This document shows positions 10,992-58,691 of a stretch of 64,000 nucleotides of DNA, piece after piece (the first letter of the stretch is position 1; each line of letters starts with the position of its first letter). Under the pieces are notes generated by a model. It had not been told where the DNA came from and made no database searches. It saw only the letters and a program-made list of their open reading frames with translations. The position numbers were made by a program, and so were the translations under genes. This DNA is from Geosiphon pyriformis uo1 (Eukaryota > Fungi > Glomeromycota), in NCBI GenBank assembly GCA_016748015.1, contig JAAOMT010000003.1:1182373-1246372 (forward strand). Direction: 5' to 3'.

Positions 10992-11785
10992 TGTTACTAG
11001 AAGTTTTTTGGTCTTTTTTTTTAAATGTTATTAATATTAGTTTGCTGCTAATTTACAATTTCTAGAAATTAATAAATCTTTAATAACTAAATTTATCTTT
11101 AAATTATCTTTTATAATTTGAACTACTGAACTTATAAATAGAATAACCAATTCCATACTAATTATTTTATATAGTTATGTTGTAGTAAATATCAACTCTT
11201 TTTTAAGAATTGCTTGTCTAAAAGCTTACTAAATTGTATAATTACTTTGCTGTGAAAGTTAACTTTTTTACAGAAATCTTATTTATAAACTATTTTAGTA
11301 ATTATAATAAAAAAAGTAAAAAAATATAAAAAAAATATAAAAGAGATAGAATTTAATTTAAGAGAATTATTTCTGGTCCAGACCTAAAAAAACTAACAGT
11401 TTACTAAAATTAGTAGTTAATAAATTTTAAAACATTAATTGGATTTTAAAAAATTTCAAATGTAAATAATTTAAGAAAATTAGGCTTTCAAAGTATTTAA
11501 TTTTTATTCATTTTTTTTGCAAAAATATATAAAAGTTAATTGATTCTAACTAAGATAATTCTTGGTAAGATACATTTTTTTGAAAAGAAAAGCTTTTCTT
11601 TTATATAATTTATTATAATACTAGTCTGTGAACTTGAATTTTTTCTCTTTGTTATAATTTTAATAAATTAAAGATACATTTTGACAAACTACAAATTATT
11701 TTATTAAGCTATTAACTATTTCAGTAAATTATTCATTATTTTAGCAAATTTCTATAAATTCAGTGAATTTTTGAATGTTACATAA
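10992..11785 (-). repeat. 3' LTR of Gypsy-A (truncated by Gypsy-B)
   Basis: Colinear with 33426-34200, including an A-rich segment absent from the solo copy at 14783. Begins TGTTACTAG. Confidence 0.85.
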
Positions 11786-14782
11786 TATTACTTATAAAAA
11801 ATAATACAAAAAAAAAATAGAAAAAACAAATAGTAAAAATAGGCCAATAAAAAAATAATACTTAACAAATAAGCATATTGTCAAAAAATTAAAACATATT
11901 GTTTAACAATAAGCACATTGTTTAGCAATGAAAACATTGTTAAAAAATTATAACATATTGTTTAACAATGAGCATATTGTTAAAAAATTATAACATATTG
12001 CTCAAGAATGTATAAAATCTTATATAATGAAAATTATATATATATAACAAGAGTATTAGAAGCAAAAAAAAAATTTAGATAAAAAACAGCAGCTAAAAAT
12101 CAGTAATTATCCAATATTTTTTTTTTAAAAGATAGTTTCTATAACTTGAAATAAAATTATACTTATATTAATAAAATTATCTATTATTAATAAAATTATC
12201 TATTATTATCTCATTTATGTTATTATTGCTTGATTAAGAAATATTAATCACTTCTATACTATTAATAATTTATGTTAATAAAATTTGATATTTAACCATA
12301 TTGAATTAATAGTTTTTAATCATGACTATTGATAAAATACTAATTTTTTATTTTATTTTCTTATTTTTTTATTTTATTTTATTTTAATTTTATTTTATTT
12401 TATTTGGTTTCATTTTCTTTGTTGTTTATTAATTGATTAAAAAAATTAAGTGTTAAGTAATTAACATCAAAAATAGTCTGGTAAAAGACCCAAAAACAAA
12501 AATAAAAAACTTAAGAATAGTTCACTAGAAGGCCATAATTGCCAAAATAAACCAGTTACCACACTAAAAAAAAATTCATAGAAAAAACCTTTTAATTAAA
12601 TCTTTGTTTATTATACAAAGAACTTAACTAAAACCTTTAAACTCCAAAATCTTTAGAAATTATCAATATAAACAGTTATTAGGCACCAAGTTACAGATTT
12701 GTTATTTGTTTCAACACTCTAAATAATTATTTGTAATATTTAGCACTCTTTGTAAAATATAATTCAATAAAAAATTAGCACTAACAGCAACTATTTAGAA
12801 CAGTAGCAGAATCAGAAGTAATAGGAACAAATCACTTGGAATTTGTGAAAGCTTTATTTCAACACTATCAAATTTACTTTGGACTAACAAGTAATTATTG
12901 GCCAGCAGAATCAGCTTTCAACTTTTATGTTAATAAAAAAATTAAATTCTACTTAAAAGACCAAGAAAATTCAAAAACCACTCATAAAAATTTTTACAGA
13001 AAATTACTTCAAAGCATTATATTTCTACAAAATTATTTGTTTGCTCTATTAATTACAAAAATAAATTAAGAAATTAAGAATTACATTTAACAAAAATTTC
13101 TTATTACTTCTACAGACAAAAAAAAATTATAAACTTCAACAAAAACACCAAAAAAAATACAATTATCTACTTAAAAAAAACCAAAAGTTGTTTTACTTAT
13201 ACACTTATTTTATCATAATATACCAAAAAGTACTATTCACATATTATTTAGATCTATATTACTATTAATTACAAAGACATTATTACTTAGAGTACTATTT
13301 CAAAATAATCAAAAAAAAAACAAATTATTAAGAACCTATGACAATTTTTTGAAGAATTTAAATTGTAATCAATAACATTATTAGGATTTTAATTATTGAT
13401 ATCTTAACCAAATTTCGGATCTATCAATAATTGGGCAGACACCAATTCAAAAAAAAAATACAGTAATCAGAAAAATAATATTCAAAACTCAATCTTAAAT
13501 AACTCAGAAGTCTAAATTCCAATTGTTCAAACTTAATAAAATCTAAACAATCTAAATTCAGCTCTTATTCTTCCAAAAAACTTACCTCCAGTTATCTTGA
13601 TTAATCCACTGTCAGTAATACCAATTGCTACTTAATCACAACTATCATGGTTTAATTAGTATTTAGGTTTAACTTAGTAAAAAAAAGAATTAATATTAAA
13701 GGAAAAATAATTAATACAGAATATAGAAGAAATATCATTATAATACTACAAAATAAATCAGAAAAAACATATACAATTGAACCAAATAAAAAGATAACAT
13801 AACCAATATTTTTACTTTTGGTAAAAATAGTTCAGTTAGTGTTAATGAAAACAAGAGAAAAGTTAAGAATTACAGCCAGAAAGATAAATAAATTTGGATC
13901 CACAAGTAGAATAAAGATACCAATTAATATAATGAAAAAAGAAACTATTAATTAGAGAAAAATTATTTCTACCAATTAATTAATTTCTATCTTATTATAT
14001 AACCAGCATATATTAGTTATAGAAAAAAAAGTAAAAGATTAACTCCAAATTTTTGAAATAAAACTTACTATTTGTGAATTAGAAGAAATTACTATTACCA
14101 ATTTTTACATACTAGCCAAGAACTATAAACACATTAAAATTCTAATATACAACATAATTAAAGATCTAATAAAAATACCAAATAAAACCACTATTAAATA
14201 CTTAAGCACTAAAGTTAAAAATCAAGCAACAACTACTATTCCAAATTTTTTACAACTTTGTAAATATATAGACATTATATTACAAACAATTTATATATGA
14301 GAAAAATATTATTTGTTACAACTAGAATAGTTAAAGCAAATAAACTTGGATAACTTAAACTTACTTTAAAGTATACAATTCAAGCTACTACTTAACAATT
14401 TCACCAATATCTTTGCAAATAAAAATAAATTTGGCAGAACTAATATCATTTAATATTAAATCAAAACTGGAAATACAATATTAATAAAACAAAGATCATA
14501 CCAAGTACTACTTATCAGTTATAAGATTATTTGTCAAAAAATCAACCATATGTTAAACAATGAATTAATTCAATTATTAATAAGTTTATGGTTATTATCA
14601 GTAGTATTTTGTCTGAAAAAAAATGGAAAAATCTACTTTTGTATAAATTACAAAAAACTCAACAGTGTTATTTATAGAAACAACTATTTAACTTTATAAA
14701 TTTAAAAATTATTCAATGCTTTTAGAGAAAAAAAATGGTTTTCCACATTGAATTTAGATAGTAATTACTAACAAATAATCAT

Positions 14783-15709
14783 TATTACCAGAAATTTTTG
14801 GTCTCTTTTCTTGAATGTTGTTAATGTCTGTTAGTTGTGAATTTCTATTTTTCTGAAAGTAGTTAAACCTCTGATAACTGAATTTATTTTCAAATTATCT
14901 TCTATAATTTGAACTGCTGGACTTATAAGTAGAATAACCAATTTCATGCCAGTAGTAAACATTAACTCTTTCCCAGAAATTGCTTATCTGGAAGCTTACT
15001 AAAATGTATAGTTACTTTGCTGTAAAAGTCAACTCTTCTACAGAAATCTTGTCTATAGGCTACCCTAATAATTATGCTAAGAAAAGTAAAAAAAATAGGA
15101 TTTTGTTAAGAGAATCGTTTTCTATTCAGGCCTGAAGTCACTAACAAATTATGAAAATTGGTAGCTAATCAATTTCGAAATGTTAGTTGTGTTGAGAAAA
15201 TTTCAAGTGTAATAATTAAGGATTTGGTTTTCAAATATTTAATTTTTTTTTATTTGATTTTGTAAGAATATAAAAAGATAATTTGTTCTAATTAAGATAT
15301 TTAAAGTAAGATACTATAATAAGATACATTTTTTTGAAGAGAGAAGCTTTTCTTTTATACAATTTGTTGTAGTACTAGTCTTTGAACTTGTACTTTTCTC
15401 TTTGTTCTAATTTTAGCAAACTAAAAATACATTTTGGCAAACTACAAGTTATTTCTACAAATTATTAATTATTTTGGCCAATTTCTGCTAATTTCGGCGA
15501 ATTTTTGAATATTAAATGGTTCAGAGTATTGTGTAATTTGATCATTTTAATTTCTATAATACAAATCAGATTATTAATTGAATAATTATTTTTGATAATT
15601 TGATTAAATAATAAATAATAATTGAAATAATAATAATATATACTAATTAATAATAAAAATTATAAGGGTAACTTCATGTTAATTAATAACTAAAATTCTA
15701 TTGGTAACA
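14783..15709 (-). mobile_element. Solo LTR of the Gypsy-A family inserted in the RT of Gypsy-B
   Basis: TATTACCA...TGGTAACA termini and a perfect 4-bp TSD TCAT (14779-14782/15710-15713). Removing it restores the RT frame 'Y*QIIINSANKKKT'. Confidence 0.9.
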
Positions 15710-18125
15710 TCATAAATTCAGCCAACAAGAAAAAGACAATGTTTACTATTAGAGAAAAAAACTTTGAATTTAATGTTATGTCTTTTGGTTTAATCAATAC
15801 TTCAGTCATTTTTCAATGATTAATGAAAATTGTGTATACTGAATTATTATAAAAATTAGTAGTAGTCTACTTAGATAACACCAATATGTTTTTCAAAACA
15901 TTTAATAATCATTTTTACCATCTCCAACAAATGTTTAAAAAATTAAAAAAAGCTGAATTAAAGCTAAACACAATTAAATACTTCTTTGAAAAAACTAAAC
16001 ATAAGTTTTTGGGATATGTTGTAAACAAAAACAGCATTAAAACAGATCCAAACAAAATTAAAATAGTTAAAAACTTTTCAGTGTTAACAAACTTAACAGA
16101 ACTAAGAGTATTTTTGAAATTTGCTAAAAACCATTACCATTTTATTCAAAACTTCTCCAAACTGACTTAACTATTTTACCAGCTTTAAGCAAAAAACATT
16201 AAATATAAATGAACTAAAAATCAACAAAAGCTTTTAACATATTGTGAAAAAAGCTTATTCAAGCTTTAGTATTAATTGATCTAAATTACAGCAAATTATT
16301 CATTATTACCACTGATGTATTAAGCCAAGTATTGAAAGCTGTGCTATTACAAAAGAGATCAAATAGATAAAAACATTCAGTAATATATGCCATCTAAAGT
16401 TTGAGTCTAGCTAAAAAAAACTATAGAACTCTAACACTAAAACATTTAGCTATTTATTAGGCTGTTATAAAATAGAAGAAATACTTGAATCAAAAGTTTA
16501 ATGTATACACTAATTACAAAGAATTAACATTAATCCAAAAGCAAAAATTTGGAAACAATTATCATACCAGATAAAAAATAAAACTTTTATCATTTAATTA
16601 TACAGTGCATTATAAAAAAAAAAAAAAAAGGAAATCCTAACAAATTGTTATGAATAAAACAAATTTAAAAATATTTTAACCCAAAAATATAACAAAAAAT
16701 AAATACACAAAAATACCAACAACTTTAACATTATATTAATACTTAACAGTTTTAAAAAAAATTATCTTAAAAAAAACAAAACCACATAAAACAACAATCA
16801 AAATATTTTATTACTTACTAAAATATATTATATTAGAAAAACAATAAAGATCTAATCAACTACTCAGAATAATTACAAAACCAGAAAAAAAACAATATTG
16901 TTTAACATGTACTTAGGTCTAAGTGCCAGACATTTTCATAAAGAAGCAACTATAAAAAAACCAGAAAAAAATACTATTGGCTATTTATGTATTCAGATAT
17001 CATCTAATATATTTAAAATTGTAATGCTTGTCAAAAAAAAGAAAAAACAAGACCTAGTAAACTATTAAGACTAATTAAAGTGAGACAATCATTCGATCAA
17101 ATTGGAATTAACTTAGTTAGATTATTAATAATAACCAGCAAAAGCAATTAGTATATAGCAGTAGCTATGAACTATCTTACAAAATTGCCAGAAGCAAAAA
17201 CAATACAAAAAGCAAATACAGAATTCATAGCTAAATTCATTTACCAAAATTTGATTTATTGACATAGATGTCCAAAAAAATTATTATCAAATCAAGAAAC
17301 TCATTTTGTGAACAGAACATTAACAGAATTAAGTCAAAAATTTGAAATCAAAAAACCATTATTATTACCATATTATTTACAAACAAATGACTTAGTAAAA
17401 AATTTAACAGAACATTATATGAAGTGATAGTAAAAATTAGCCAAGAAAACCAAAACAAATGGAATTTGTTTATATCATCAGTATTATTTGCATATTAGAC
17501 AATAAAGCAAGATACCATACAAGTAATACTATTTGAACTTGTTTATGGTAGAATGACAACATTATTAGTTGAAATAGACATTAAAACATATTTAATGGAA
17601 CCAATAACAGAAACCAACTTTCAAAAAACATTTCTAAGAAGAACATACAAATTAATAAAAATGTTGAAAAACAAAAAGCAGCTAATAACATTTAAAAATC
17701 ACAAAAAAAACAAAAAAAATAACATAATAACCAATTATCAGATAAACCAGTTGAATTCAGGATTAAAAACAAAGTACTTTTATATCATACTAAAGTAGAA
17801 AAACAATAGAATAAAAAATTTGACTCCAAATGAGACAGACCATTTTACATTGAAAAAATTCTAGAAAATAAAGCTTATAAATTAAAATATAACAACAAAA
17901 TTTTAATTAAAGCAACACATAGAGATTAATTAAAACCATATTACAATATAGTATTATTATTTACCAATAATATTCTACAACTAGAAATACAAAGAATACT
18001 AGTTAAATCAGATAAAATTTCATGAGATTTAAAACCAATCATTATTATTGAAGCAAACATATTAAATTAAATTACCAGAACAGTATATAAAAAACCAAAA
18101 CACATAAAAAAAACAACAAAAAAAG

Positions 18126-18781
18126 ATGAAAATTACCAACAACATCCACTTATTTGCACAACAACTATTACAACTAATTTAACAACAGGAATCAAGCCTG
18201 GAAGTTATCATCAATAAAAACATAATACAATATAAGAACAAAGAAATAACACAAAAAAACCAAACTAAAGAGCAATATTTTAGATATCACACTTCTAAAA
18301 ATATTATAGATAAAATAATAATAAAAATAGAAAAAACATTGAAAGATCCAAAAATATCAATACTAAAAGAAGAATTGATCTTAAAAAATTGGAACCAATA
18401 GATACAACAAATCCAAAAAACTTTTGTTATTATCAGTTGGAACAATAGTTAAGCATCAAAAACTTATATACTGACAAAACAAAAAGAAAATTTGATCTAA
18501 TTTAATTACAACAAATTGAACAACTTGTTGGAAAAAACAATTTATTCATATATACAAGAGCTATTTATTGACTATAAATGAGATTTTGAGACAAACCAAA
18601 AATATTACTACATTTAACAATAGATACTATAATTATTAATCAATTGAGAAAATTAACCAATGCCCAATTTAAAGAATTGCAGATGAAAATTACAAAAGCA
18701 ATTCTAGAGAAAGAAGTTATAAAGCTAATCCAAAAAAAAAATCTAGAAAGTTTAGAAGATTTTGATAGAGCTCAATATTAA
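18126..18781 (+). pseudogene. ORF3 of Gypsy-B (env-position accessory ORF, decayed)
   Basis: Translates 'MKITNNIHLFAQQLLQLI...YYQLEQ*LSIK...QQIEQLVGKNNL...IIINQLRKLTNAQFKELQ...FDRAQY*', which aligns with ORF3 of Gypsy-C. Confidence 0.8.
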
Positions 18782-31100: not shown

Positions 31101-34100
31101 AAAGTTGCTTGGGTTTTATTATTGTGGTAGTTGATATCTCTATTTTTGCTATTATTGTTAATTGGTAAAATAATTTTCAACTTTTTTAGTTAGTTGATTA
31201 ATTTTTTTTTTAGCTGCTGAATTGGTTTCTTCAATGGCTAGATTGACAAGTTTTGTATAATTGGCTTCTTTTATTGTCATTATTATGGAATGGTTTTCTT
31301 GGTATATTTAATTGCCAATATTCCATTTTAATTGCAATTAGTCTTTTGTGAGTTCCTTAATTTTATTTGTGTAATAATGTTATTGTTATACTGAAGACTT
31401 TTTTTTTAATGTTACAATGTAAGTTATTTTTCAATTTCTAATTGTTGTGTGTATTTATGTACTCCTTCTCAAAGATTAAACTGAAATCTACCCACTGTTT
31501 TTAGTCTTCTCTAAAGCTATTTTTACAATTGCTTAATCTGTTTCTCTAATTTAAAAACATGAAATGTTAATAGCCCTTAGCACTTTTCCTAATTTTCACA
31601 ATAAAGCTTTTATCAATTAATAACAATGTGAATAATCTTAATCAAAGATTATTCTTCCAAAAGATTCAGCTGATAAATAATAGTTTTATTCAATAAATAA
31701 TACAAGTAAGTTTCTTAACATTTTAAGTTGTAATTATTCAGTTTTCAATATTCTTTTTGATTAAAGGTTTTTGTGAATATTTATTTTTAAAAGTAAAGAC
31801 TAAAAGATCATTAAAATGGAACTGTTAAATGAATTGTTTGATAACTTGTTTTTATGATTTGTTGGATAATATTGTTTTTCTCAATATTAAAACTACTATA
31901 TATATATATGTTTGTAGTTTTATAAGAAAACACATTGTAATACTTTTTTTTTGGTATTTCAATCTGGTGTTTACTACTATTACCAGTTAGTATTAACCAC
32001 TATTACCAATTGGTGTTAGCCACTATTGTAAACTAGTGCTTGCCATTATTACAAGATAGTGCTTGTTACTATGTTAATTATTATCTTTCTAGAATTATTA
32101 CTGTACTATATTATGATTGAATAATTTATATTATTTTATAATTTTTTTGCTAAATTCTTGAACCATAATATTATTTTATAGGTCTTAGCATATTGGATAG
32201 TAGTAATTAAGTCTTTTAGAACATGTGATTAAACTTTTTTGATAAGTTTGTCTTTTAATTTTGCAATAAATTAATCCAAAATCTGGGCATTAAAGTAATA
32301 ATTATTGGTTTTTAATTGTTGAATTCATTAGAGAAATTTGTTGAACTTTCCAAGATAAGTTATAACAAATTCAAATGGTTTTTGTTTGATATTGCAAAAC
32401 TAATTTTCAAGAATAATAAATGTATTGTTATTAATGAATTGTTTCAAGAAAGCATTTTTAAATGCTTGTCAATTTTCAAATAGTTTTGCCAAATTTTTAA
32501 ACCATTCTCCAGCTGTTTTTTAAAGAAATTAGAGAATAGCTTTTAACATTCTGGCTGCATTCTATTTGTTTGCATTTTCTGCTTTTCCAACTCTATTTAA
32601 CTATTCTTGAGGACTGATATTAGCATCTTTACTAGTAAATTCAGTAATTTTTGCAATATAAGTGGTTGCTATTTCTTCTGTATATTTGTTTTTAATGGGT
32701 TTTTTTTCAGTAAATTCAGAAATGTTTTTGTTGTTATCAAAGTAATTATTTTGGTTTTCTGCTAAGAAATCAAGAAGATTGGTACTGATAAATATTAATT
32801 TTGGTTGTTGAATAGGACTTTTTGGTAAGATAAAATCTTCTAGTTTTGAAAACCAGATAAGAAGTAAATTGGGTGTTTGCAATTAAACAAATAAAATAAG
32901 AAATAGTGTGATAAAGAGTGGTAATCTGACACTAGTTCCTTAATCAGATGTTTATAAGTATTTGGCCATTATTCTTGGTGTGTTATGAATTGTTTTTGAG
33001 TTTTGTTTTTGTTTTTGTTTTTTTTGTTGTTATTTTTAGATTCTGATTCTATGTTTAAAAAAAAATTTGAATTGTACTGAGTATTTTTTTACAATATTAA
33101 ATGATATTAAAATTGAGTTTTTAAAAGTAAATGTAAAGTGTTTTACTATTAAAGTTTTTTGTTTTTAAGTAGAAATAATATAGTAAATTTTCATAAAAAT
33201 TGTTTTTGACTTTTGAAATATTATAGTCTTCAAAAAAATAATTGTTAATACAGTTTTTAATATATTGGTATAATAATTTATTAAAAACTTCAATTCCGTC
33301 TTAAATTTTAAATTTTTGTTTACAGTAAGTGTAAATTAACCAATAATACTCTAGAGTTGTTGTGTTAGATGTGATTATTACTTTGAAGTTGTTATTGCTG
33401 TATTAATTTATAAAAAAGCACTAAATTTTACTAAAGACTTTTGGTTTTTTTTTTAAATATTTTTAATGTTAATTTGCTGCTAATTTATGATTTCTGAAAG
33501 CTAATGAATTTTTAATAACTGAATTTATTTTTAAATTATTTCTTATAATTTGAATTGCTGGAATTATAAGTGGAATAACCAATTTTATACTAGTTACTTT
33601 GTATAGTTATATTATAGTAAATATCAACTTTTTCTTAGGAATTGCTTATCTAAAAGCTTACTAAATTGTGTAGTTACTTTGTTGTAAAAATCAACTCTTT
33701 TACAAAAATCTTATCTGTAGACTACTTTAGTAATTATAATAAGAAAAGTAAAAGAAAATATAAAAAAATATAAAAAAAATAGAATTTAATTTAAAAAAAT
33801 TGTTTCTGATTCAAGCCTAAAAAAATTAATGGTTTACTAAAATTGGTAGCTAATCAATTTTAAAATGTTAAATGGGTTTTAAGAAATTTTAAGTATAAAT
33901 AATTTAAAAAAATTAAGCTTTTAAAATATTTATTTTTTATTTATTTTTTTTACAAAAATATATAAAAGTTAATTGATTCTAATTAAGATAATTCTTGATA
34001 AGATATATTTTTTTAAAGAGAAAAGCTCTTTTTTATACAACTTGTTATAATACTAGTTTGTGAATTTGAACTTTTTTTTTTGTTATAATTTTGATAAACT

Positions 34101-37100
34101 AAAAATATATTTTAATAAACTACAAGTTATTTCATTAAATTATTTATTATTTTTACAAATTTCTACAAATTTTGATGAATTTTTGAATATTATATGGTTT
34201 AGTATATTGTGTAATTTGATCATTCTAATTTCTATTGTACAAATTGAATTATTAATTAAATAGCACTTTCTTTTTTGGTGGCTCTTCTTCTGGCTCTGGT
34301 TATGGTTTAAGCTTCTCTTTGTCTGGTGCTTTGGGATTGGGTGGTGGTGCTTTCTCTTTCCTATTCGACAAGTCTCCCTTGGTTGCTCATTTGGCATCTT
34401 TGGAATGCTCTCTTAAACTTTTGGCTGACCAGGTTTCTGGTATTTTCAGAAAATTGAATTTTGTTAAATTGGTGCTTATGGTACTGTTTTCTGATGCTCT
34501 TTTTTTGGTTGGCTCTGTGCTGGTGGCTCCTGTTTTGGATTCAGATATGGCTTTGGATGGTGTATTGGCTCTGACCTCTCCCTTTCTCTCAAGTGTTGAG
34601 TTAGGTGCTGGTTTCAATTCAAGTAGTTCAAAGGTTCTGACCACCAAAATAGGTGGTTTGGAGTCTAAAATGTCAGCTATGGAGGCTTCGGTCAGTTTTG
34701 TTTTGGCGAAATTGGATCTCTTGTGTTCTGGTTTAGATCTTTTTTTACCTTATTCTTTCCAATAAGTAGTCTGGTTTGGAAATTTGCTATGTGTAATATT
34801 CATGGAATCAATGTTCCTGCCAAGCAGGAGGATGTTGTGTATTGGCATTAAGATTCTGGCAATTTGGTCTCATTCATTATGGAAACAAAGTTAAGATCTT
34901 CTACTAAGCCATGAATTGCAAATAAGTTTAATGGAATGCAGATTTTTTTTTCAGGATTAAATAAAAGTTTCATTGGTACTGGTGTTGCTATAATTATAGA
35001 CAATTCCTTGGCTCATTATGTTTCTAAGGTGGAGGAGATTCCTGATAGAGTTGTTTCTGTTCAGCTCTTATTTAAAGACAAACTCTTGGTTACTCTTTTG
35101 GGATTATATGCTGGTGCCTCTTCTGGGGCTAAATTTGGTCAGGCTTCTAAAGTTAACTTTTTCATTGCAAAAGCTGTCAACTCCAGCATTCATGTTATCT
35201 TGGGTAGGAACTTTAATGAGAATGGATCTGGTAGGAGTGCAAGTTTCAAGTTCTGTTTGGGTTTGGGTTTGGTCAATTCATTTGGTAATCATTGTTCAGC
35301 TGGCTCTCATACATGGAACAATTCAAGAGGGGTTGTGAAGACAATTGATTACATTCTTGTTAGTGGCAGCTTGTCTTCTGCTGTTGCTAATTATCAGACA
35401 GTCCTTGTTTCAGATTTCTTTGACACTAATCACAGGGCAGTTATGGTGTCAATTGGTTTGGGTGGGCTTCTGAATGTTCAATTGAATAGCTTGTGCAAGC
35501 AGGCAAATAGAGATTGTTGGAAATTTAAGTTCAAAGATGCTGACAGTGCTAAATGGGCTAAGTTTAGAGATCTCTTTTCGGCAAAACTCTTGTCATTGGA
35601 TAACATGTTCTCTAGTGCTGAAGTGCATGGTAATGTGGATGCTATGTGGGTGATGTTGTAGGAGGCTGTATTAGAATCTGCTGATAAGACATTTTTAAGA
35701 CATTGGTTTAGCAAATTTAGGTGTCTGAAAAACAAGCATTCTTCCAAGTTTTTTGGTTTGGAATTGTTGGTGGCCAAGATTGTCAAGAAATTTTGCTCTG
35801 ATGGCTTGTCTGATGTTGATTTTCTTGTAAGTAAGTGGTTGACTCTGGATAATGTCAAGGCTTGTGCCTTCAGAGACTTGGTTAGCTCAGGTGTCAAATC
35901 TGATGTTATTGTTAAGCATTTGTCATTGGTCTACAAAGATTACAGGAGGGTGAAGATGTTTGAGTTGAGGTTTGCTGAGGAGACTTCTATTAGGAAGGCA
36001 ATTGATAGGTGCATGAAAAATTTCTGTTCAGACAAAGGTAGTATGATCAGAAGTGTGTTGGACAGATCTCATTACAAGGTAGTGTTGGATCACCTGGTGG
36101 TTGATTATGAATTGGTTTTGGAGCCTGAAAAGGTGAAGGCAAGCGTGGACAAAATAATGAAAAAGTGGACAAGAAAATAATCAGTGCAGGCAGTGATCTC
36201 TGATCTTTAGACTTGGCAGTATGAGCCATTGAAATGATGTCTTTTCTGGTGTTATGTATGAGGTTGACATGGATGAGTTGCTTTCGGTCGTTAGTGATTT
36301 GTCTGATGGCAAGGCTGCTGATTTGTCTGGTATTCTAAATGAGTTGTGAAAACATAGTAGTAAGATGGTTTTGGAGTGCATGTTAGCACTATTTAATGTG
36401 TGTTTGTCTGCTGGTGTGGTGCCTGTTTTGTGGAAAAAGACATGGGTTTCAATGATTCCCAAGTCTTATGACTGGGATGGGGTCCTTATAAACACTTGGC
36501 CCATTGCTTTGATTGAAACTGTCAGGAAAATTCTGTTTAAGGTTTTGTCTGATCGTATTTCAGTGGTTTACAGCAAGTTTGACATTCTTCAGGGTAACAA
36601 TTTTTCAGTGTTAAAGGGTACATCTACGCAATCTCCAGTGTTTGCTGTCGACTCAATGGTTGAAGATGCTCTTAAAAAGAATTGAGAGGTTTGGTTGGTT
36701 TTGCAGGATATGCAGAAAGCTTAGAATTCAGTTAAGTGGCACTATTTGAGGACTAGCTTGTGGTGTATCAAGATGTGTGAGAAATTTATAAGGTTTTTTA
36801 GTAGTATTCATGAAAATAGGGTTAACAGGATAATGACTGACTTTGGTTTATTTGGTAATTACAAGATGCATGATAGACTAGATCAGGGTAAGGTTTTTTC
36901 ACCTCTTCTGTGGAGAATCTTTTATGATCTGCTTTTGTGTGAGGTTAAAAAACACAAACAATTGTGTGGGTACTGGATTGATACTAAGTTTGTTTCAAAA
37001 ACTGGCAAAATTGAAGATGGTGGTGGTTTGACTTCATACTTTTCAGCTGGTGCATTTGTTGATGATACAATCTGAATTGGAAATTGTCAGGCTTTCACTT

Positions 37101-38917: not shown

Positions 38918-39966
38918 TGTTATGGGTAAACTTGATGGATATGGGAAATGGTAACGTTTGGTGCTTTCAATTATTGATGATGCGTCTTCTGCGTAATTCT
39001 GTTGGCTTAGTCTTGATTATCAGTCTCTGAAGGTCTATTCCTGGATGTGAATTTTACCCGTTGAGTTCTTTGGTTATAAGGCACAGAGTTTGTCTTTTGT
39101 CGATTGCAACGTTTTTTGTAAATGTGAGCTTTCTTCTCCGAGCTAACGAGTGCAGTTGTTAGAGTCTGGTGTTGTCTTTTCACCCTTCTGGTAAGCTAAC
39201 AAGATAATGTTAATATCCAAAACTTAGGGGGAGCTTCCCTCTTTTATCAGGCTATCACGAAGTCTATTCCCAGACAGTCGATTTTACTATGTTGCTGCTT
39301 TACAAAAAATAAGACAGAAAAAGAAAGAAAAAGAAAAAGAAAAAGAAAAGAAAAGAAAAGAGAGAAAAGATAAATTAGTATCATCAATTGCCATGATCAA
39401 GAGTGATTGGTCCAAATTGTTAATAGATTTGAGGTGGTTATGCTAAGAGCATCTGTTCTAGAATGGAGGTACGAGACAAGGGTTAATTCATGTAAATTCC
39501 ACAAAGTTTGAGAACATGAATTTGTGATTCTGATTTCTTTTAATAATTGGTTTATTTCAGAAGATGAAATAGGGAAGATAATAAAGAATGAAGGGGTATG
39601 AATATTTTAATTTTTGGTTTAGAGGTTCATATCTATTTTTTTCTTCTCTGTCCTTTCTCACTTCTACAACTACTTGCTTTTATACATTCTTTTGGTTTTA
39701 CAGGATTGCTTTCAATTGTCTCACTATTGCTAGCTATTGCTTTGTTGTTTCTGTTATTGCTTCATTTTTCTACATTATCGCTAGTTATCCTATGTTATAA
39801 CACATTATCTGATGTTATTACATGTTATTCTGTGTTATCCTGCATTATAACACATTATCCAATGTTATAACGTGTTATCCAACGTTATTGCACGTTATTC
39901 TGTGTTATGTCATATTTTGGTTATGTTTCTTTATAACTTTAGATCGGTTTTTCTACTCAGATAACA
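38918..39966 (-). repeat. 3' LTR of Gypsy-C (1049 bp)
   Basis: Direct repeat of 48023-49115 with TG...CA ends. Confidence 0.95.
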
Positions 39967-39982
39967 TTATCTCTCTCTTTTT
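39967..39982 (-). promoter_or_regulatory. Polypurine tract of Gypsy-C
   Basis: Minus strand reads AAAAAGAGAGAGATAA directly before the 3' LTR TGTTAT. Confidence 0.85.
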
Positions 39983-40715
39983 AAAATTGAGCTCCTACGA
40001 AACTGTATGTATCTGTTATCATGGTTTCGTTCATGTAATGTTTGATTGTTGCCTCGAGTATTGCCTTTTGTAGGTCTTTGAACTGTTGATTGGTTATTCG
40101 TCCTATACTGTTAACTATTATGGTTTTCATAGATCCATTCAGTAGTACGTTTGGGCAATGTTGGAAGGTGGCGTATAGTCGGTATGCTGCTTTGTAATGT
40201 AGAATCAGGTTGTTTTTTTCTACGAATTTTTCTACTTGTTGTATTGCTTCTTTGTTGAATATTTTCTGGCTGAGATCTTCATATGGTGTTTTCAAGTCAA
40301 GCTGTTCTCCAATTTTGTAGAACCAATAAGCTGGAGGAAGTCTTTCTTTCCATTCCTGGGCGTTGTCAAGTGTCCACTCCCCTGTTTCGGGGAGTTTGGT
40401 CCCACAAGCTAAAGCTTCTTTTATTTCTTCGAGCTCGGGGACCAAGTATCTTCTTTTGTAACTTTTTTCTCATTCTTTGCCTCCTTCTTTTCCACCTCCC
40501 GCCTAAAGGCAATTTTTCCTCCCACATTGCCTTTCGGGTGGTGGGTAGGAGAGAGAACATTTAGTTCTAATTGAACTCTCGTTCTTCCCTCTCCTGCTCT
40601 TATCTTTGTACTGTATGTCTTTTTTACCAATTGTTATTTCTATTTGAGATGTCAATTTTTGAATTGTTTCAAATAATTGTTTAGATAATTTTAAAATTTG
40701 ATCTGAAAGGTCCAT
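39981..40715 (-). pseudogene. ORF3 of Gypsy-C (~244 aa, env position, two in-frame stops)
   Basis: ORFs 40503-40775 and 39981-40445 are in the same frame. Likely start is MDLSDQILKLSKQL at 40715 and it ends 'FVGAQF*' at the PPT. A homologue is present in Gypsy-B. Confidence 0.8.
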
Positions 40716-40795
40716 GTTGAAATTTCTATCGTTTCTTGCTGCTTTTCGGATGCTATATATATTTGAATTCCCCAATTTAATTTGCTGCCCATTGT

Positions 40796-43700
40796 TTACG
40801 TTTCAATGACAATAATTGGTTCCAGATCTGGTGGTATATTTTCTGATCTGATTAATGAAATTTGTGTTCCTAGTTGAGGTACTGATGATGATGATTCCTG
40901 TTTTACATGATAAATTTTTAACCAATTTCCATGCGCTACTTTCTTTAAAATCCTGTCTTCTAATCGTAATTTGTAAGCTCCATTTCCTAACGCTTCGTGT
41001 ATATGGAATGGACCATCCCACTTTGGGTCGAACTTTTCACTCCACTGTTTCTCAGCTTTTATACAATGTAACAGTACTTGGTCTCCAATCTTGAATTCCA
41101 TTGGTTGTTTTGATAGGTGTTTATCATGTCTTTCTTTTTGTCGTTCTTGAGTGTGACTAATATTGCCAGCTACTGTTTTTTGATTGTTTTCTAACATTTC
41201 CATTAGCTGGTACGTTATTTGGTATAAGATAGCCTCAAAATTCTCTTCATTGATTGTTTCTGTTGGGTATGATGGTATCACTTGTTCAATCGGTAATGTA
41301 GCTTTTCTTCCATAGACTAGTTCGAATGGTGTGAACTGAGTCGTATTTTGTTTCAATGTTCAGTATGCAAAGAGTACAGAAGATATGAATAAGTCCCATT
41401 CTTGTCTGTTTTCATGACTTATTTTTACTAGTGCTTTGCACAGTGTTCTGTTAAATTGTTCTACCAGTCCGTTTGTTTGTGGGTAGTATGGTGATGATAA
41501 GGGTCTCTTTATTCCAAACTGTTGGCTTAGTTCAGTCAGTGTATTATTAACGAAGTGTGTTCCCTGATCAGATAATAATTCTTTTGGACATCCATGTTGG
41601 CAAATTAGGTCTTGATGCACAAATTTGGTGACTGTTTTGGCATTGGCCACTTGGATTGCTCTGGCTTCTGACTATTTTGTAAGATAGTCTACGGCTACAG
41701 TGATATAGCAATTTCCTTGGGATGTAATTGAAAAAGGTCCAACCAAATCGATCCCGATTCTATCAAATAGATTTCCAACTGGAATGGGTTGAAGTGATTC
41801 TGTTGATCTTGCTCCTCCTCTTCGCTGGCATGCGTCACAATTGAGCATGTATTCGAAAATGTTTTTGTGCATTGTTGGCCAATAGTATAAGTTTAGTGTT
41901 CTTTTGAGGGTAGCGTCTTTTGTTAAAGTGTCCTGCAGTCAGATCTGAATGTACGCTATATAGTATAGTTTCTTTTTCACTGTCCATGATTAGTCATTGT
42001 GGGTTGGGGTGGTTTCGGTGTTCTCGTCAATATAGTTGGTTGTCTTGAATAAAATAATTTCGGGCTTGTTTTCATATGGTACTCTGTTTCTGTTGAGATA
42101 ATATCTTCTTGAAACATAGTGTCAATAGGTACTGATGTAGTCATTGATAAGTGAGTGTGTCCATGGGTTTGAGATTAGGTTTGTGGCATCCTCAACAAAC
42201 TGTCGGCATTGGTGTTCTTGGATCTTTCCTTGTAATGAACTTTGAGTGAAAATTGTTGCAGATAAGTACTCCATCTCGCATATTTTCTTTCTAGTTGTGG
42301 ATTGTTGAGTAACCAAATAAGTCCTTTGTGGTCGGTATATAGGTCAAATGGTTGACTAAGGTAATGTTTCCAAGTCTGTATGGCCCAATAAATGGTGAAA
42401 CATTCTAAATCTGTTGTGCTGTAATTCTTTTCTGCTGGGCTAGTGCTGCGACTAGCGTAGGCAACTGGGTGTTCTCTATTGTCTGGTCCTATCTGTGATA
42501 AGACTGCTCCTAGAGCATTTTTTGAGACGTCCGTAGCAATAATAAACCGTTTAGTGAAATCTGGGTAAATCAGGATTGGGGATATGATCAATTGCTGCTT
42601 GAGATAGTCAAATGCTTTCTGTTGATCTTCCTTCCACAAGTACGGTACGTATTTAGACAACAATTGATGGAGTGGTTTTGTGATGTTCAAGAAACCTTTG
42701 ACAAATCGACAATAATATCATGCTAATTCTAGAAATCCTCGTAATTCTCTGAGGTTGATTGGAGCTGGAAAATCCTTGACTTTTTGTACTTTATCTGGAT
42801 CGGGTTTAACTCTATTCTTGCTGATTATATGTTCTAGGAATTTTAACTCAGTTTTTCCAAAGAAGCACTTCTCGGAATTGAGTTTTAATCCAGCACTACG
42901 AAGACATTCGAAGACTTATTGCAGGTGGAACAGATAGTCTTCAAATATTTCAGAGAACATGTTTGTGTCATCTAGGTAGACTACTACTGATTTCCAAAGA
43001 ATTTCTTTGTATACTACATTTATCAGGCATTAAAATGTGGCAGGAGCATTACAAAGTTCAAAAAGCATTACGTTAAACTCAAAGTTTCCGTCTCAAGTGG
43101 CAAATGCTGTTTTTCTTTTGTCTTTGGGATTTATTTTAACTTGCCAGTAACCACTTGCTAAATCTAATGACGAGAACCATTTTTTTTTCCCTAGATTGTC
43201 CAGAATTTTCTGGATGAGAGGAGTGGGATAACTATCTCCTCGTGTGATGCTATTTAGTTTTTGATAATTTACGCAGAATCACACTTTTCCGTTTTTCTTG
43301 GTGACCAAGACTACTGGTGAAAACCAAGAGCTTAACAATTCTTTGATTAGGCCATTATCAAGCATCCGTTGCACTTCTTGCTTAATTAGGTTATCACCAG
43401 ATGGGGGTACACGATAAGTTCATTGCTTAATTAGTTGAGCGTCTATTGTATCAATCTGATGCTTCATGATGTCGGTGCATCCGAACTCATTTTCACTGGC
43501 AAAGACATTGGCATACTGATTCAGAAGGACTTTGAGTTGCATTTGTTGCAGGGTACTTAAATTTCCTAAATTCAATTTATTGATCTCTTCTGGTGTGAAC
43601 AAGTAACTTTCTTTTGGCAAATTCCATACTTGTGAGGTAATGTCACAGAATAAGAATAATTGTGCGAAATCTGGAATGAACTGGGATTTTTCAGGATTCT

Positions 43701-46700
43701 GACTATCTGTGGATATAGAACTGATAAGAGTCCCTTTGGGAATTTCAATGACATCTTCTGTTGGGTTGTGAATGGGGATTTTGAAGTGTTTATGGGCTTT
43801 GGCCAGTAGGTATAGATTAGCAACATCAGCTAAGGAACAGATTTTGGGACTGGCTTTGAATAATAGGGCTTGATCTTGGATCTTTCGATTCACCTTGAGG
43901 ATGTATTGTCAATATAGGAGAATGGAGATGATGGTGTCGGTGTAGATAAATTCTATCTGGTTACTGTCTTCCTCCATGAAATTAACTGGTATGTTTCTTC
44001 TTCCACTTGATCCAAACCCATTGATTCCTCGGGCAGTGAGGTCTAACTCTTCTCGGATTGTTACCAGGGTTAATTGGAGTATTTTGACTAGGGGTAGGAA
44101 AATAGCTTGGGCAATCTTTTCTTGTGATTCTATTTTGTAGGGTCTGTTCAAATTGTTTTGTAGCATCACGATGATGTTTTCCATGTAACCGGCATCAATG
44201 ATTCCTCCTTTTATGTTGATTCCTTTTTTGGCTAGACTAGATTGAAAGGCAACTTGTATCATTGTACTAACAGAAATTTCTAATGCTATCTTAAGATCTA
44301 TTTTTACAAGAGAATGTGGGGCTATAATAATGGGTGATTGTCCAGGGTATTGTAGGTTGAAACTGGCATCAGTGTCATGTACTCTTTCGGGGCAGATTCT
44401 TTCCTCATTGTTACTGTACCATTTTAGCTCTAGTTCTTTGGATAAGTCAAGATATGTGAGATACTGTTCTGTTTCAGTATCCTCAGTTGGATCTTGAAAC
44501 ATGTCCTTGATAATCAATACCTCTTCTTCGGATTCAGGTAGTTTGGTGATTAGAAACAGTATTCTTGGAAGTGAATTGAACATGAGATCACATTCATCGC
44601 AGTACTGGAAGTGACAGGGGATCAAACAGTGATTGCATAGTTTGGTATTCAAATCGGCCAATCTTTGCTCCTGTTCCTCACAAGTTGGGGTTAATTCCTG
44701 ATATCAGTTCTAAAATGCGTCTGGGTCATCTGTAAAGAAATCATCCTCAGGGTAGTCAGGTCCAGTATATTCGGGTGTCCAAGAGTTGTCCTTAATTTCT
44801 CATATTTCTTCGGGCATGGTGCTTTCAGCCTTGGCACTTGCCATTCTCCAGATTTCGTGGTCATCATGTGGATAACCATCTAGCCTGTTGAGTGTTCGTT
44901 TCCAAGTGTCCTCGATGAGGGTTCCCTTTCATACTCAATCATTGATTAATATGGTGTATTGACAAGCCTCGTCACATGTTCTTCCTCTGCCAGGCACATC
45001 ATTCCAGAGTCCTTCATCTGGCAGGATTTTACCACATACGAGGCACGGCATGTGGTCCCACTTGCCTTGTCGTTTTGGTCGTCCAAATCTTTTCAGTAAA
45101 CAAGGTCTGCAATAGTATTTGGTGGTGGTGGGCCATTTTTTGTTGTTCCCGATACATGTGCCCATAGTAGATAATTTTTTTTTACAATTGACACATATTA
45201 GTCTTGGGAGTTAGTAAAATAAGTTTCTTTGGTCCGAGGTTACATATCCTAGTGATAACAATTGGGGTTCTTCTTCGGCTCTGCCTTTTTCTTTTTCTTT
45301 CCAGGTTGATGGTGGAGGTAGTTCAGTTTAATAATCATCCACCCATGAAACCTGATAAGTCTCGATGGTTGGTGGCATTGATGTGTCTTTGAATTCAATA
45401 AGGGGTTCCTTGGTACGTTGGTTTTTAAAGTGTCCGCACATAGCTGGGACTTGGGCATGCTGTCCGTTGAACATGAGTTGAAGTTCTTAGGTGTTCCAGT
45501 CGAGAGTAGCGTTGGCTTTTGACAACCAGTCATTTCCTACTAGAGCTTGATATTGAGTAGTTTCCATGATGAGTACTTTGGTAGGAATTTGGATTCCATT
45601 AATCTCAAAGGGGAAGTTGTCAATTTCTCCTATTAGGGTTTTTGTGTTTCTATCCGCTGTAATGATCTGGGCAGTAGCAGCATAGTCTACTTGGCGACCT
45701 AGTTGGTCCATGAACTGCTTCGTAATTATGCTACCAGCTGATCCACTATCCAGAATTAATTTAATGTCTATTCCTCCGACTCTGACATCGGTGTATAGGG
45801 CCATTATTGGTTTATCTTGATTGATAGCTGCTCTACTAAAAAGGCTATGTGTGTTCAAATTATCGATGTCAAAAAGAAATATGGCGGCTAGGATGGTGTT
45901 TTTGGTAATAGTGGCTGGTGGGATATTGTTTTTTGTTTGCTTGGAAGGTTGGGAGATTCGTTCTATATCCCCCTCTTTCACAGATGTAGATTTATCAAAA
46001 CCCTGGTCTTCCATAAGACTGAGATAGGAAGCTTGATTCGGGTATTCAGTTGGTGTTGGTCGAGATTGGGCAGGACCACGAGGGATTGATTGAGATGGTC
46101 CACTGTTGGTTTGCACCTGATTGTTGTTGGAATTCCTCCATCCCTGATTATAGTCTATAGCTCAAGATTTGAATGGGCTGTAAGAGAAAGTTTGATAGTG
46201 AGGGATTGCTTGTGTCATTGGTGGTGGTTGATAATAATTCTGGGGCGGTGGTTGAGTATACGGGACTTGTTGTGCATATAAGAGTGGTTGATTCTGAGGT
46301 ATGGAATATTGGGATACCATGTTTTGCTAATATCTGGATTGCTGGTATGGGTTTCCTTGATTTTGGTCCATGATCTTCCTTCTGCAGTTATGGGTAATGT
46401 ATTCAGATTTCTGGCAGTAGTAGCAGTTGCAGAGATCGGATCTCCAAGGTTGTTGCTATTGCTAACAGTTCTGTTGCTGTGGGTATCTGCTGTTCTTGTT
46501 ATTTTCTCTCCATTGGGGTGGTTGGTAAGTTCCTGTAGTTCCGGCTAAGATCCCTCAATTTTCTGAGTTAGTTTCTCACTCAATTGGATTATCTTTGCGT
46601 CAATGTCAGAGGTTCCGTTAATGGCTAAATTAACAGCTTAGGTATGGTTCGCTTCTTGTTCTGCAGACTCAAAATTGCGAGCGAAAGTGATGGCGTCTTG

Positions 46701-48003: not shown

Positions 48004-48020
48004 CCTCACAGGGAGCACCA
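48004..48020 (-). promoter_or_regulatory. Primer-binding site of Gypsy-C
   Basis: TGGTGCTCCCTGTGAGG, 2 nt downstream of the 5' LTR, complementary to a tRNA 3' end (...CCUCACAGGGAGCRCCA). Confidence 0.88.
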
Positions 48021-48022
48021 AA

Positions 48023-49115
48023 TATTACAGATAAACTTGGTGGGTATGGGAAATAGTAACGTTTGGTGCTCTCAATTATTAATGATGCATCTTCCACATA
48101 ATTTTGTTGGCTTAGTCTTGATTATCAGTCTCTGAAGGTCTATTCCTGGATGTAAATTTTATCCATTGAGTTCTTTGGTTATAAGGCACAGAGTTTGTCT
48201 TTCATTGATTGCAATGTTTTTCGTAAATGTGAGCTTTCTTTCCCAAGCTAACAAGCGCAGTCATTAGGGTCTGGCATTGTCTTTTCACTCTTCTGGTAAG
48301 CTAACAAGATAATGTTAATATCCAAAACTTAGGGGGAGCTTCCCTCTTTTGCCAGGCTATCACAAAATCTATTTCCAGACAGTTAATTTTACTATGTTGC
48401 CACTCCACAAAAAATAAGACAGAAAAAGAAAAAAAAAGAAAAAGAAAAGAAAAGAAAAGAGAAAAAAAATAAATTAGTATTGTCAATCACCGTGATCAAG
48501 AGTGATTGGTCCAAATTGTTAATAGGTTTGAGGTGGTTATGCTAAGAGCATCTGTTCTAGAACAGAGGTATGAGACAAGGGTTAATTCACGTAAATTCCA
48601 CAAAGTTTGAGAACATGAATTCGTGATTCTAATTTCTTTTAATAATTGGTTTATTTTAAGAGATGAAATAGGGAAGATAATAAAAGATGAAGAGGTATGG
48701 ATATTTTAATTTTTGGTCTAGAGGTTCGTATCTATTTTTTTCTTCTCTGTCCTTTCTCACTTTTACAACTACTTGCTTTTATACATTTTTTTGGTTTTAC
48801 AGGATTGCTTTCAATTGTCTCGCTATCGCTAGCTATTGCTTTGTTGTTTCTGTTATTGCTTTGTTTTTCTATGTTATCGCTAATTATCCTATGTTATAAC
48901 ACATTATCTGACGTTATTACATGTTATTCTGTGTTATCCTGCGTTATAACACATTATCCTATATTATTGTACGCTATTCTGTGTTATCCTGCGTTATAAC
49001 ACGTTATTCAACATTATAATGCATTATCCAACATTATTGCACGTTATTCTGTGTTATGTCATGTTTTGGTCAAATTTCTTCATAACTTTAGATCAGTTTT
49101 TCTACGTGTGTAACA
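48023..49115 (-). repeat. 5' LTR of Gypsy-C (1093 bp) with a U3 10-bp tandem array (48880-49059)
   Basis: Direct repeat of 38918-39966, with NNYRTTATNN units at a 10-bp period. Confidence 0.95.
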
Positions 49116-57814: not shown

Positions 57815-58691
57815 TAGTATTAAAATTATTAATTCTTTAATATTTATGTTATTAATTTTATTTTGTTATTAATTTTATTGTTAATAGAAATTATTAAATC
57901 TTTAATAAGCCAATTTATTTTTAAAGTATTTTTTTATACTTTAGACTATTTATATTATTAAATTTATGATAAAATAACCAATTTTGTATTAATTATTTTG
58001 TGTAATTATTTTGCAATAAAAGCCAACTTTTTTACAAAAAATTTTAATTGTAAATTTTTTAATAATATGTAGTTATTTTGTAGAAAAAATTAATCTTTTT
58101 ACAAAAAATTTTGATTATAAACTATTTAATAATATATATATATATAATTAAAATAAAAAAATATATAAAAAAAAGTATTTTTTATTCAGACTTAAAATTA
58201 ATTAAGTTACTAAAATTAATATCTAATTAATTTTAAAATATTAATTAGAATTTATAAATTTTAACAATAATAATTATAAAAAAGTTTGGTTTTTAAAATA
58301 GATTTTATTTAATTATTTTCTAAAAATTTTTTTTTAAAAAAAGCTTTTTTACACATATTTATTATAGTAATATTCTATAAATTAGTATTTTTTTTTGCTA
58401 ATATTTTAGTAAATTAAAAGTATATTTTAACAAATTACAAATTATTTTTATAAATTATTAATTATTTTAATAAACTATTAAATATTTTAAATTCTTAAAT
58501 ATTATATAGTTTAAAATAATTTAATTTAATTATACTTATGTATTATACAAATTAAGTAATTAATTAAATAATAATAATTAATAATTTGATTAAAATAATA
58601 AATAATAATTGAAATAATAATGTTTATTAATTAATAAAAATTATAAAAATAATTTTATGCTAATTAATAATTTAATTTTTTATTTAATAAT
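57815..58691 (-). mobile_element. Highly eroded LTR of the Gypsy-A family
   Basis: Colinear with 14783-15709 but almost devoid of G/C. Boundaries are approximate. Confidence 0.75.

What the first reader, a model, noticed from the sequence alone, without database searches (positions are those of the whole stretch)
39981..40715. Conserved non-membrane third ORF in the env position of two divergent gypsy families
Seen: between the integrase stop and the PPT, Gypsy-C encodes a ~244-aa protein in a separate frame. Gypsy-B (18126-18781), which has different LTRs, encodes a clear homologue: C 'FYKIGEQLDLKTPY...QQVEKFVEKNNL...AAYRLY...TIIVNSIGRITNQQFKDLQ...FVGAQF*' vs B 'YYQLEQ*LSIKNLY...QQIEQLVGKNNL...AIY*L...TIIINQLRKLTNAQFKELQ...FDRAQY*'. 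Both start with an amphipathic helix (MDLSDQILKLSKQL / MKITNNIHLFAQQL) and stop exactly at the PPT. Protein-level conservation despite nucleotide divergence implies past selection. No signal peptide or TM helix is visible, so it is not a classical Env. Known: most fungal Ty3/gypsy elements are gag-pol only. Inference: an uncharacterised accessory protein (anti-silencing, targeting or nucleic-acid-binding factor) defining a complex retrotransposon lineage. This is my best candidate for a new system, together with the dUTPase and Cys-rich module.
Basis: partly seen in the sequence, partly recalled or inferred. Interest (0 to 1): 0.82.

Follow-up and report, generated by a model that had tools for sequence, protein, structure and literature searches.

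The report
Third gene of fungal gypsy retrotransposons
Two decayed jumping genes in this fungal DNA carry, behind their integrase, a conserved extra gene that matched no described protein family or solved fold in my searches; it is predicted to be a soluble helical protein, likely made from its own promoter, and it likely works in the nucleus to switch its own element on.

Summary
Element C (minus strand) has a 244-codon frame between integrase and the polypurine tract, but it carries two in-frame stops. The copy in element B is frameshifted and has further stops. The two are homologous (34% over 122 aa, E 5e-16) and show a coding signature (codon position 2 vs 3 identity, 93 vs 60 of 135, p=8e-5).

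Relatives are Geosiphon pyriformis gene models in about five subfamilies (17-42% identity), plus three metagenome homologues. One of these is intact and sits behind RNase H and a separate integrase. There is no membrane segment, no Pfam family and no fold match, although the AlphaFold model is confident (pLDDT 80.5): it is not a classical Env.

A TATA box lies 46 nt (C) and 42 nt (B) before the ATG. A basic, flexible linker carries a PY-type nuclear-import motif in most subfamilies. Best reading (0.4): a nuclear activator or anti-silencer made from an internal promoter. A Rev-like role is the main rival, because family C embeds a strong four-hairpin RNA block in the gene. Extra 3' ORFs are a known kind; this protein family is undescribed in my searches.

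The parts
39981..40715 (-). ORF3 of element C, 244 codons plus stop, two in-frame stops (codons 71, 82)
   Evidence: family profile match 1e-86 over all 216 positions (this copy is in the profile)
40754..40761 (-). TATA box (TATATATA) 46 nt before the ORF3 ATG; candidate internal promoter (inferred)
   Evidence: one of only 2 TATAWAWR matches in the 8040-nt internal sense strand
40365..40598 (-). Predicted four-hairpin RNA block inside the ORF3 coding sequence; covers the family-C linker insertion
   Evidence: z -6.3, 0 of 200 shuffles; the two lowest-z windows of 202 over element C; 0 of 200 synonymous resamplings fold as well
39970..39982 (-). Polypurine tract, overlapping the ORF3 stop codon
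   Evidence: sequence
38918..39966 (-). 3' LTR of element C (TG...CA); U3 with 20/50-nt tandem repeats rich in ATAAY
48023..49115 (-). 5' LTR of element C; 94 differences in 1042 aligned bases to the 3' LTR, 90 of them transitions, 49 at CpG; flanks TTGG / TCGG as decayed 4-bp target duplication
48004..48020 (-). Primer-binding-site-like stretch beginning TGG, 2 nt after the 5' LTR (tRNA not identified)
   Evidence: sequence
42175..46161 (-). Decayed pol frame: protease, Cys-rich stretch, dUTPase, RT, RNase H, then a stop
   Evidence: Pfam hits for protease, dUTPase and RNase H; 16 stops in 1329 codons
40796..42164 (-). Decayed integrase with SH3 tail, starting at its own ATG after the RNase H stop
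   Evidence: Pfam rve and SH3_Tf2-1
18126..18781 (+). ORF3 homologue of element B, frameshifted and with several stops, ending at a purine tract
18084..18091 (+). TATA box (TATATAAA) 42 nt before B's ORF3 ATG
   Evidence: B is AT-rich, so such matches are commoner there (1.5 per kb)

Best explanation
ORF3 is a formerly selected accessory gene of a fungal Ty3/gypsy lineage; it encodes a predicted soluble helical protein that is likely made from its own internal TATA promoter, is likely imported into the nucleus through a basic linker, and there likely binds its own element's DNA or chromatin to switch the LTR on or keep it unsilenced. Shown: position, homology across families, coding signature, no membrane segment, TATA-box sequence in C and B (gene real: about 0.95). 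Predicted: an N-terminal helix plus beta-hairpin, a flexible basic linker and a compact helical core. Inferred: internal promoter (about 0.65), nuclear action in trans (about 0.6), action at the DNA or chromatin level rather than on RNA (about 0.4 overall). The logic: a gene with its own promoter can be expressed while the LTR is off, as for foamy-virus Tas and maize Grande gene23.
For: Real gene: ungapped C/B diagonals keep codon position 2 in 93 of 135 codons and position 3 in 60 of 135, p=7.8e-5. pN/pS is 0.63 (95% 0.46-0.86) for 118 core codons and 0.49 (0.34-0.79) for 47 N-terminal codons; integrase and RT controls give 0.38-0.58. An open paralogue (P0006) and intact 230/234-aa metagenome homologues exist. 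Linkage: 31 of 117 family proteins also match integrase, always upstream. L001 has RT/RNase H, a stop, a separate integrase and then an intact ORF3. Promoter: TATA at -46 in C (chance about 0.008 for a 31-nt window) and at -42 in B (about 0.05). Nuclear: linker net charge +3 or more in 37 of 39 sequences; R/H/K-X2-5-PY in 21 of 39 (not independent), against 4 of 51 background windows; this linker is low-confidence in the model (residues 40-50). The motif definition is from the start of the abstract of PMC2408616. Precedent: Grande gene23 is nuclear with its own promoter (PMC7264820); Tas comes from an internal promoter (PMC8003144 passages). Silencing pressure: LTR differences are mostly transitions, about half at CpG.
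Against: No binding, localisation or expression data. The intact L001 copy has no strict TATA match at -30 to -60; the nearest is at -126. The PY motif is missing in all 7 family-B sequences that hold the linker and in the window's own copy, and G-to-A decay inflates lysine in the Geosiphon copies. No DNA-binding fold was recognised: best Z 4.7; the ParB/Spo0J/KorB rows are Z 3.4-3.6 only. The two intact homologues are net acidic overall (-3). The hairpin block in family C points to an RNA-level role instead. dS is near saturation and the diagonals were picked by protein alignment.
Confidence: 0.4

Rival explanations
1. ORF3 is a Rev/CERV-like RNA factor: it binds a structured element in the element's RNA and exports or stabilises the full-length transcript, which carries several internal stop codons.
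For: The strongest predicted RNA structure of the whole 10-kb element C lies inside ORF3 (z -7.2 and -5.3, the only 2 of 202 windows below -4; 0 of 200 synonymous resamplings). One of 3 windows tested in B reaches z -3.1. Basic linker. CERV of Cer1 and HIV Rev are precedents (PMC10309623 abstract and section 15).
Against: No structure at the matching place in the intact homologues: 6 of 6 L001/L002 windows have z of -1.6 or higher. An mRNA from the internal TATA would itself contain the hairpins. No sequence or domain likeness to CERV; the intact homologues have 1-2 cysteines. Covariation could not be tested, since no paralogue DNA was available.
Confidence: 0.22
2. ORF3 is a particle or pre-integration-complex accessory protein (nuclear import of the cDNA, or targeting of integration) that works with the stand-alone integrase.
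For: Found next to integrase in C, B and L001 and in 31 gene models. The integrase is a separate ORF with an SH3 tail, and no chromodomain was hit in the integrase pieces scanned. NLS-like linker.
Against: ORF3 diverges faster than integrase (C vs L001: 35 of 103 aligned residues identical, against 203 of 358). A separate promoter is not needed for a stoichiometric particle protein (inference).
Confidence: 0.15
3. ORF3 is a degenerate Env or a captured viral coat or movement protein that supports spread between nuclei, cells or hosts.
For: Env position and sense orientation. The second ESM Atlas row was a closterovirus coat cluster (0.93, 156 shared features).
Against: No hydrophobic segment (at most 1.29). 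All-helical soluble core. No match at E<=0.001 among predicted viral structures. The Atlas recognition score (2186) is below the level at which high scores mean much.
Confidence: 0.05
4. ORF3 is a passenger: a captured host fragment, or a frame kept open by an overlapping RNA or DNA signal, with no protein function.
For: Both window copies are broken; the hairpin block could constrain part of the sequence; no expression evidence was obtained.
Against: Codon-position signal and pN/pS below 1 between families. Conserved start, linker and core across families at 17-42% identity. Intact 230-aa frame, against 13-27 stops in each of the other five frames, on L001. Confident fold. The pol and integrase frames are broken to a similar degree.
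Confidence: 0.04

Closest known systems
Sense additional ORFs between pol and the 3' LTR of Ty3/gypsy elements (aORF-3S / env-like ORFs of Athila, Bagy2; review PMC7264820, parts 1-2 of 3 read)
   Same: Same position and orientation; carried by many copies; function unknown.
   Different: The reviewed sense aORFs are discussed as env-like, some with transmembrane domains and spliced RNA. This protein has no membrane segment, has a TATA box just upstream, is fungal, and shows no sequence match.
Maize Grande gene23 (same review)
   Same: Accessory gene in the pol-3'LTR interval, with its own promoter and a nuclear product (inferred here, shown there).
   Different: gene23 is antisense and from a plant. 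No homology was tested directly; no Pfam link.
Foamy virus Tas/Bel1 from the internal promoter (PMC8003144, passages read)
   Same: Small non-structural gene just before the 3' LTR, with a candidate internal promoter; the model for the favoured mechanism.
   Different: A retrovirus with env; no sequence or fold match; transactivation is not shown here.
CERV of C. elegans Cer1 (PMC10309623, abstract and section 15 read)
   Same: Novel accessory protein of an LTR retrotransposon acting in the nucleus on its own element.
   Different: CERV is large, comes from a spliced mRNA and has G and Cys-loop M domains; ORF3 is about 210-245 aa with few cysteines.
VANC anti-silencing proteins of Arabidopsis VANDAL transposons (PMC5735166, PMC10398659; search listing only)
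   Same: Transposon-encoded trans factor against methylation silencing; a functional analogy only.
   Different: DNA transposons of plants; no homology found.
dUTPase-bearing fungal gypsy PosPlaTy3-5 and the unnamed 'add. ORF' of fungal elements (PMC2864245, passages read; figure and supplements not seen)
   Same: dUTPase between protease and RT; an extra ORF of unknown function is noted for some element in the figure legend.
   Different: I could not see which element carries the 'add. ORF' or whether it is related.

Membership tests
Ty3/gypsy LTR retrotransposon (host element) | Paired LTRs (TG...CA), PBS, PPT, target duplication | tested here: met
Ty3/gypsy LTR retrotransposon (host element) | Order protease, RT, RNase H, integrase | tested here: met
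   Pfam hits in this order; the integrase is a separate ORF
Env / env-like protein | Sense ORF between pol and the 3' LTR | tested here: met
Env / env-like protein | Transmembrane helix | tested here: not met
   highest 19-residue hydropathy 0.27-1.29 in 8 members
Env / env-like protein | Signal peptide | tested here: inconclusive
   hydropathy only: N-terminal 9-residue maximum 0.70-1.58; no signal-peptide predictor was run
Env / env-like protein | Fusion-protein fold | tested here: inconclusive
   no clear row
Sense additional ORF (aORF-3S class) | Present in many copies and conserved as protein | tested here: met
   the share of all genome copies was not measurable (no genome held)
Tas-type transactivator | Internal promoter | tested here: inconclusive
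   TATA at -46 (C) and -42 (B); none at that distance on L001; no RNA data
Tas-type transactivator | Sequence match to a described family | tested here: not met
   no Pfam family at E<=0.1 for the C core or at E<=1 for P0096
Tas-type transactivator | Nuclear localisation, DNA binding, LTR activation | not testable with these tools
   needs experiments
Rev/CERV-type RNA export factor | Structured cis element in the element's RNA | tested here: inconclusive
   strong in family C; not seen in L001/L002; no Rfam family at gathering score
Rev/CERV-type RNA export factor | CERV Cys-rich loop | tested here: not met
   1-2 cysteines in the intact homologues
Rev/CERV-type RNA export factor | Nuclear export signal, RNA binding | not tested
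   none
PY-type nuclear localisation signal | R/H/K-X2-5-PY in a basic, flexible stretch | tested here: inconclusive
   21 of 39 sequences, in all subfamilies tested except B; absent from the window copy
DUF1016 N-terminal (YhcG) / ParB-like helix-turn-helix (recalled lead) | Profile or fold similarity over the core | tested here: inconclusive
   hhalign probability 2%, 57 columns, 8 of 100 block shuffles reach the score; Z 3.4-3.6 to ParB-type domains

The most novel reading that the evidence does not exclude
A mycorrhizal-fungus Ty3/gypsy lineage is a 'complex' retrotransposon with four separately expressed genes (gag, dUTPase-pol, stand-alone integrase, ORF3). ORF3 is a new-fold, internally promoted nuclear anti-silencer or transactivator, a fungal counterpart of Tas or VANC, whose family-specific versions recognise their own LTR repeats (and, in family C, an embedded RNA element). 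It helped drive the LTR expansion that covers 41.2% of the Geosiphon pyriformis genome (figure from PMC11952901).
Probability: 0.22. Interest if true: 0.78.

Novelty: new variant of a known kind. Interest (0 to 1): 0.47.

Why it matters
What the extra ORFs of LTR retrotransposons do is an open question (PMC7264820). This family gives a concrete handle in fungi: intact 230- and 234-aa genes, a confident model with no fold match, a candidate promoter, a candidate import signal and, in one subfamily, a candidate RNA element, each directly testable. If it counters methylation silencing, it would help explain how LTR elements came to fill about 41% of the Geosiphon genome. It also shows that dozens of 'hypothetical protein' gene models in that genome are pieces of one retrotransposon gene.

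Tried and rejected
No whole genome is held for this window, so genome-wide copy counts, a dN/dS among young copies and covariation of the hairpins were not possible. Locus searches with the C core found nothing: 221 metagenome and 13 viral pattern matches, none confirmed; with the P0096/P0108 alignment, 0 of 404 viral stretches. Sequencing runs: no RNA holder was listed; this is no evidence either way.

Family scans: Pfam gave only single or paired weak hits among 17 members (best E 0.0073); PHROGs best E 0.0012 to a family of unknown function; NCBIfam nothing near a cut-off; PDB sequences best E 0.31, importin-5, rejected. Folds: first model of the C core pLDDT 60.8 with no Foldseek match; second model with no match at E<=0.001 in PDB or BFVD and 0 of 48,161 chains at Z>=5. 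The N-terminal mini-domain was not modelled or searched alone, and no AlphaFold DB search was available. ESM Atlas: blank for the C core; the closterovirus-coat and helicase rows for P0096 were not supported by the fold search.

The DUF1016-N resemblance (recalled, chosen after the fact) aligned at the expected motifs but was not significant. A weak profile hit at window 8948-9214 lies in an intron-rich host gene and was rejected. Spliced integrase-ORF3 fusions in public gene models were used only as evidence of adjacency. Whether the protein dimerises remains open: no complex prediction was obtained. Earlier AI notes gave no sequence look-alikes and nothing near this place.

Full report
Observation. 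Element C lies on the minus strand: 5' LTR 49115-48023, a decayed pol frame with protease, dUTPase, RT and RNase H ending in a stop at 42175, a separate integrase ending at 40796, then ORF3 (40715-39981), a purine tract that overlaps the ORF3 stop, and the 3' LTR 39966-38918. ORF3 has 244 codons with stops at codons 71 and 82. Paralogues read mostly Arg, Gln or Trp at these places, in line with the CpG-biased decay seen between the two LTRs: 90 of 94 differences are transitions and 49 lie at CpG. Element B's copy (18126-18781, plus strand) is frameshifted and has more stops. The two match at 33.6% over 122 aa, far above shuffles, and the N-termini match as well.

Is it a gene? On ungapped diagonals, C and B share codon position 2 in 93 of 135 codons and position 3 in 60 of 135 (p=7.8e-5). 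pN/pS is 0.63 for the core and 0.49 for the N-terminus, against 0.38-0.58 for six integrase/RT segments. Synonymous sites are near saturation and the diagonals were chosen by protein alignment, so these figures are rough. A fully open 244-aa paralogue exists (P0006).

Distribution. Word-based searches returned 46 of 64 and 61 of 4731 candidates, all named Geosiphon pyriformis gene models, so the window is likely from that fungus or a close relative (inference). The index-free HMMER search of 1.84 billion representatives gave 64 hits. Of these, 51 are named Geosiphon models, 2 are unnamed metagenome proteins (P0096, E 2.9e-6; P0108, E 2.5e-4) and 11 were not looked up. The Geosiphon sequences fall into about five subfamilies, 17-42% identical to each other; the tree has long branches and is no guide to deep order. 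The metagenome proteins are intact (230 and 234 aa) and align over the full length. A metagenome scan confirmed 2 of 592 pattern matches. L001 shows RT/RNase H, a stop, a separate integrase with one internal stop, and then the intact ORF3, which reads past a purine tract. Its integrase is 203/358 and its ORF3 35/103 identical to C's. L002 holds a partial copy behind another unnamed 137-aa ORF. Of 120 stored proteins, 117 match the family profile; 31 of those also match integrase, always upstream. The first ESM Atlas row for P0096 is a 98-member cluster of unnamed proteins, commonest in Mucoromycota (0.94; weak evidence by the tool's own calibration). My one HMMER job used a profile biased to family C, so the true range is probably wider than seen.

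Anatomy. No member has a membrane-length hydrophobic segment. AlphaFold with a 32-row alignment gives pLDDT 80.5 and pTM 0.66 for P0096: helix 7-20, a beta-hairpin 25-38, a low-confidence stretch 40-50, and a helical core 82-220 with block means mostly 89-96. Conserved core residues include Y102, Y104, L111, K143, N145, R155, L156, Y157, F160, L167, N178 and G181. Nothing clear matched by sequence or fold. A recalled likeness to the DUF1016 N-terminal domain was tested and stayed non-significant. The linker is basic in 37 of 39 sequences and holds R/H/K-X2-5-PY in 21 of 39, against 4 of 51 background windows; family B and the window's own copy lack the PY.

Expression signals. TATATATA lies 46 nt before the ATG in C, one of two such matches in 8 kb, and TATATAAA lies 42 nt before it in B. 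L001 has no strict match at that distance. No RNA run was listed, so expression is untested.

An unexpected feature: 40598-40365, inside ORF3, folds into four hairpins (z -6.3; parts). It contains the only 2 of 202 windows in element C with z below -4, and 0 of 200 synonymous resamplings fold as well. It matches no Rfam family at gathering score. It is not evident in L001 or L002 (6 windows) and only weakly in B (1 of 3 windows at z -3.1), so it may be specific to family C.

Mechanism. Shown: a conserved, once-selected, non-membrane gene in the env position. Inferred: own promoter, nuclear import, action in trans. I favour a DNA- or chromatin-level activator or anti-silencer (0.4), because an internally promoted gene can be made while the LTR is silent, as described for foamy-virus Tas (PMC8003144 passages) and Grande gene23 (PMC7264820), and because the element shows heavy CpG decay. 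The U3 repeats (16 ATAAY in 267 nt, against 0.7 expected from the interior) are candidate targets, but could equally be sites for host factors. A Rev/CERV-like role (0.22) rests on the hairpin block; a particle or integration accessory role gets 0.15, Env-like 0.05, passenger 0.04; the remainder is other functions.

Comparison and novelty. Extra sense ORFs before the 3' LTR are a known class (PMC7264820, parts 1-2 of 3 read), and dUTPase between protease and RT is known in a fungal gypsy element (PMC2864245, passages; its figure and supplements, which may name a fungal 'add. ORF', were not seen). Six literature searches listed no paper on such an ORF in Glomeromycotina. The original Geosiphon genome paper (recalled) was not among the listings and could mention it. 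PMC11952901 (passages) reports that LTR sequences cover 41.2% of the G. pyriformis genome; the passages returned did not discuss extra ORFs. Earlier AI notes describe similar small helical third genes in dUTPase-gypsy elements of another genome; they share no indexed words with this family, so kinship is untested and they are leads only. Verdict: a real and undescribed accessory-protein family, a new variant of a known kind, with function inferred only. Interest 0.47.

Noticed in passing
window 40598-40365 (-): Four-hairpin RNA block inside ORF3, the most structured part of the whole element; candidate packaging, export or stability signal specific to family C.
   Followed up: partly
window 42177-42162 (-); L001 772-810: Pol stops after RNase H and the integrase starts at its own ATG a few bases later, in C and in the metagenome element.
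   Followed up: partly
window 49119-49116 and 38917-38914 (-): Target-site duplication TTGG / TCGG: a 4-bp duplication centred on a CpG, decayed on one side.
   Followed up: no
window about 45200-44550 (-): Cys-rich stretch (several CxxC pairs) between protease and dUTPase in the pol frame; no family was assigned.
   Followed up: no
window about 40625-40410 (-), frame +1 to ORF3: An overlapping stop-free frame of about 70 codons over the family-C insertion; many public gene models use it. It may only reflect the purine-rich, structured sequence.
   Followed up: no
window 39966-39700 and 49115-48830 (-): U3 carries 20/50-nt tandem repeats with 16 ATAAY and 6 GATAA motifs in 267 nt; the copy number differs between the two LTRs.
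   Followed up: partly
window about 32500-19850 (-): A third, interrupted gypsy element (gag, protease, RT, integrase pieces) whose integrase end abuts B's 3' LTR; no ORF3 remnant was detected behind it.
   Followed up: partly
window 10985-11783, 14776-15584, 33428-34262, 57846-58570: A roughly 800-bp AT-rich repeat in four copies (66-83% alike), one nested inside element B's RT.
   Followed up: no
window about 6500-9400 (+): Intron-rich host gene that looks like the ribosome-biogenesis factor Kri1 (recalled motifs; not confirmed by a scan).
   Followed up: no
L002 398-811: A further unnamed 137-aa ORF directly upstream of the ORF3 homologue, with a TATA match at 314; no Pfam hit. Some relatives may carry two accessory genes.
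   Followed up: partly
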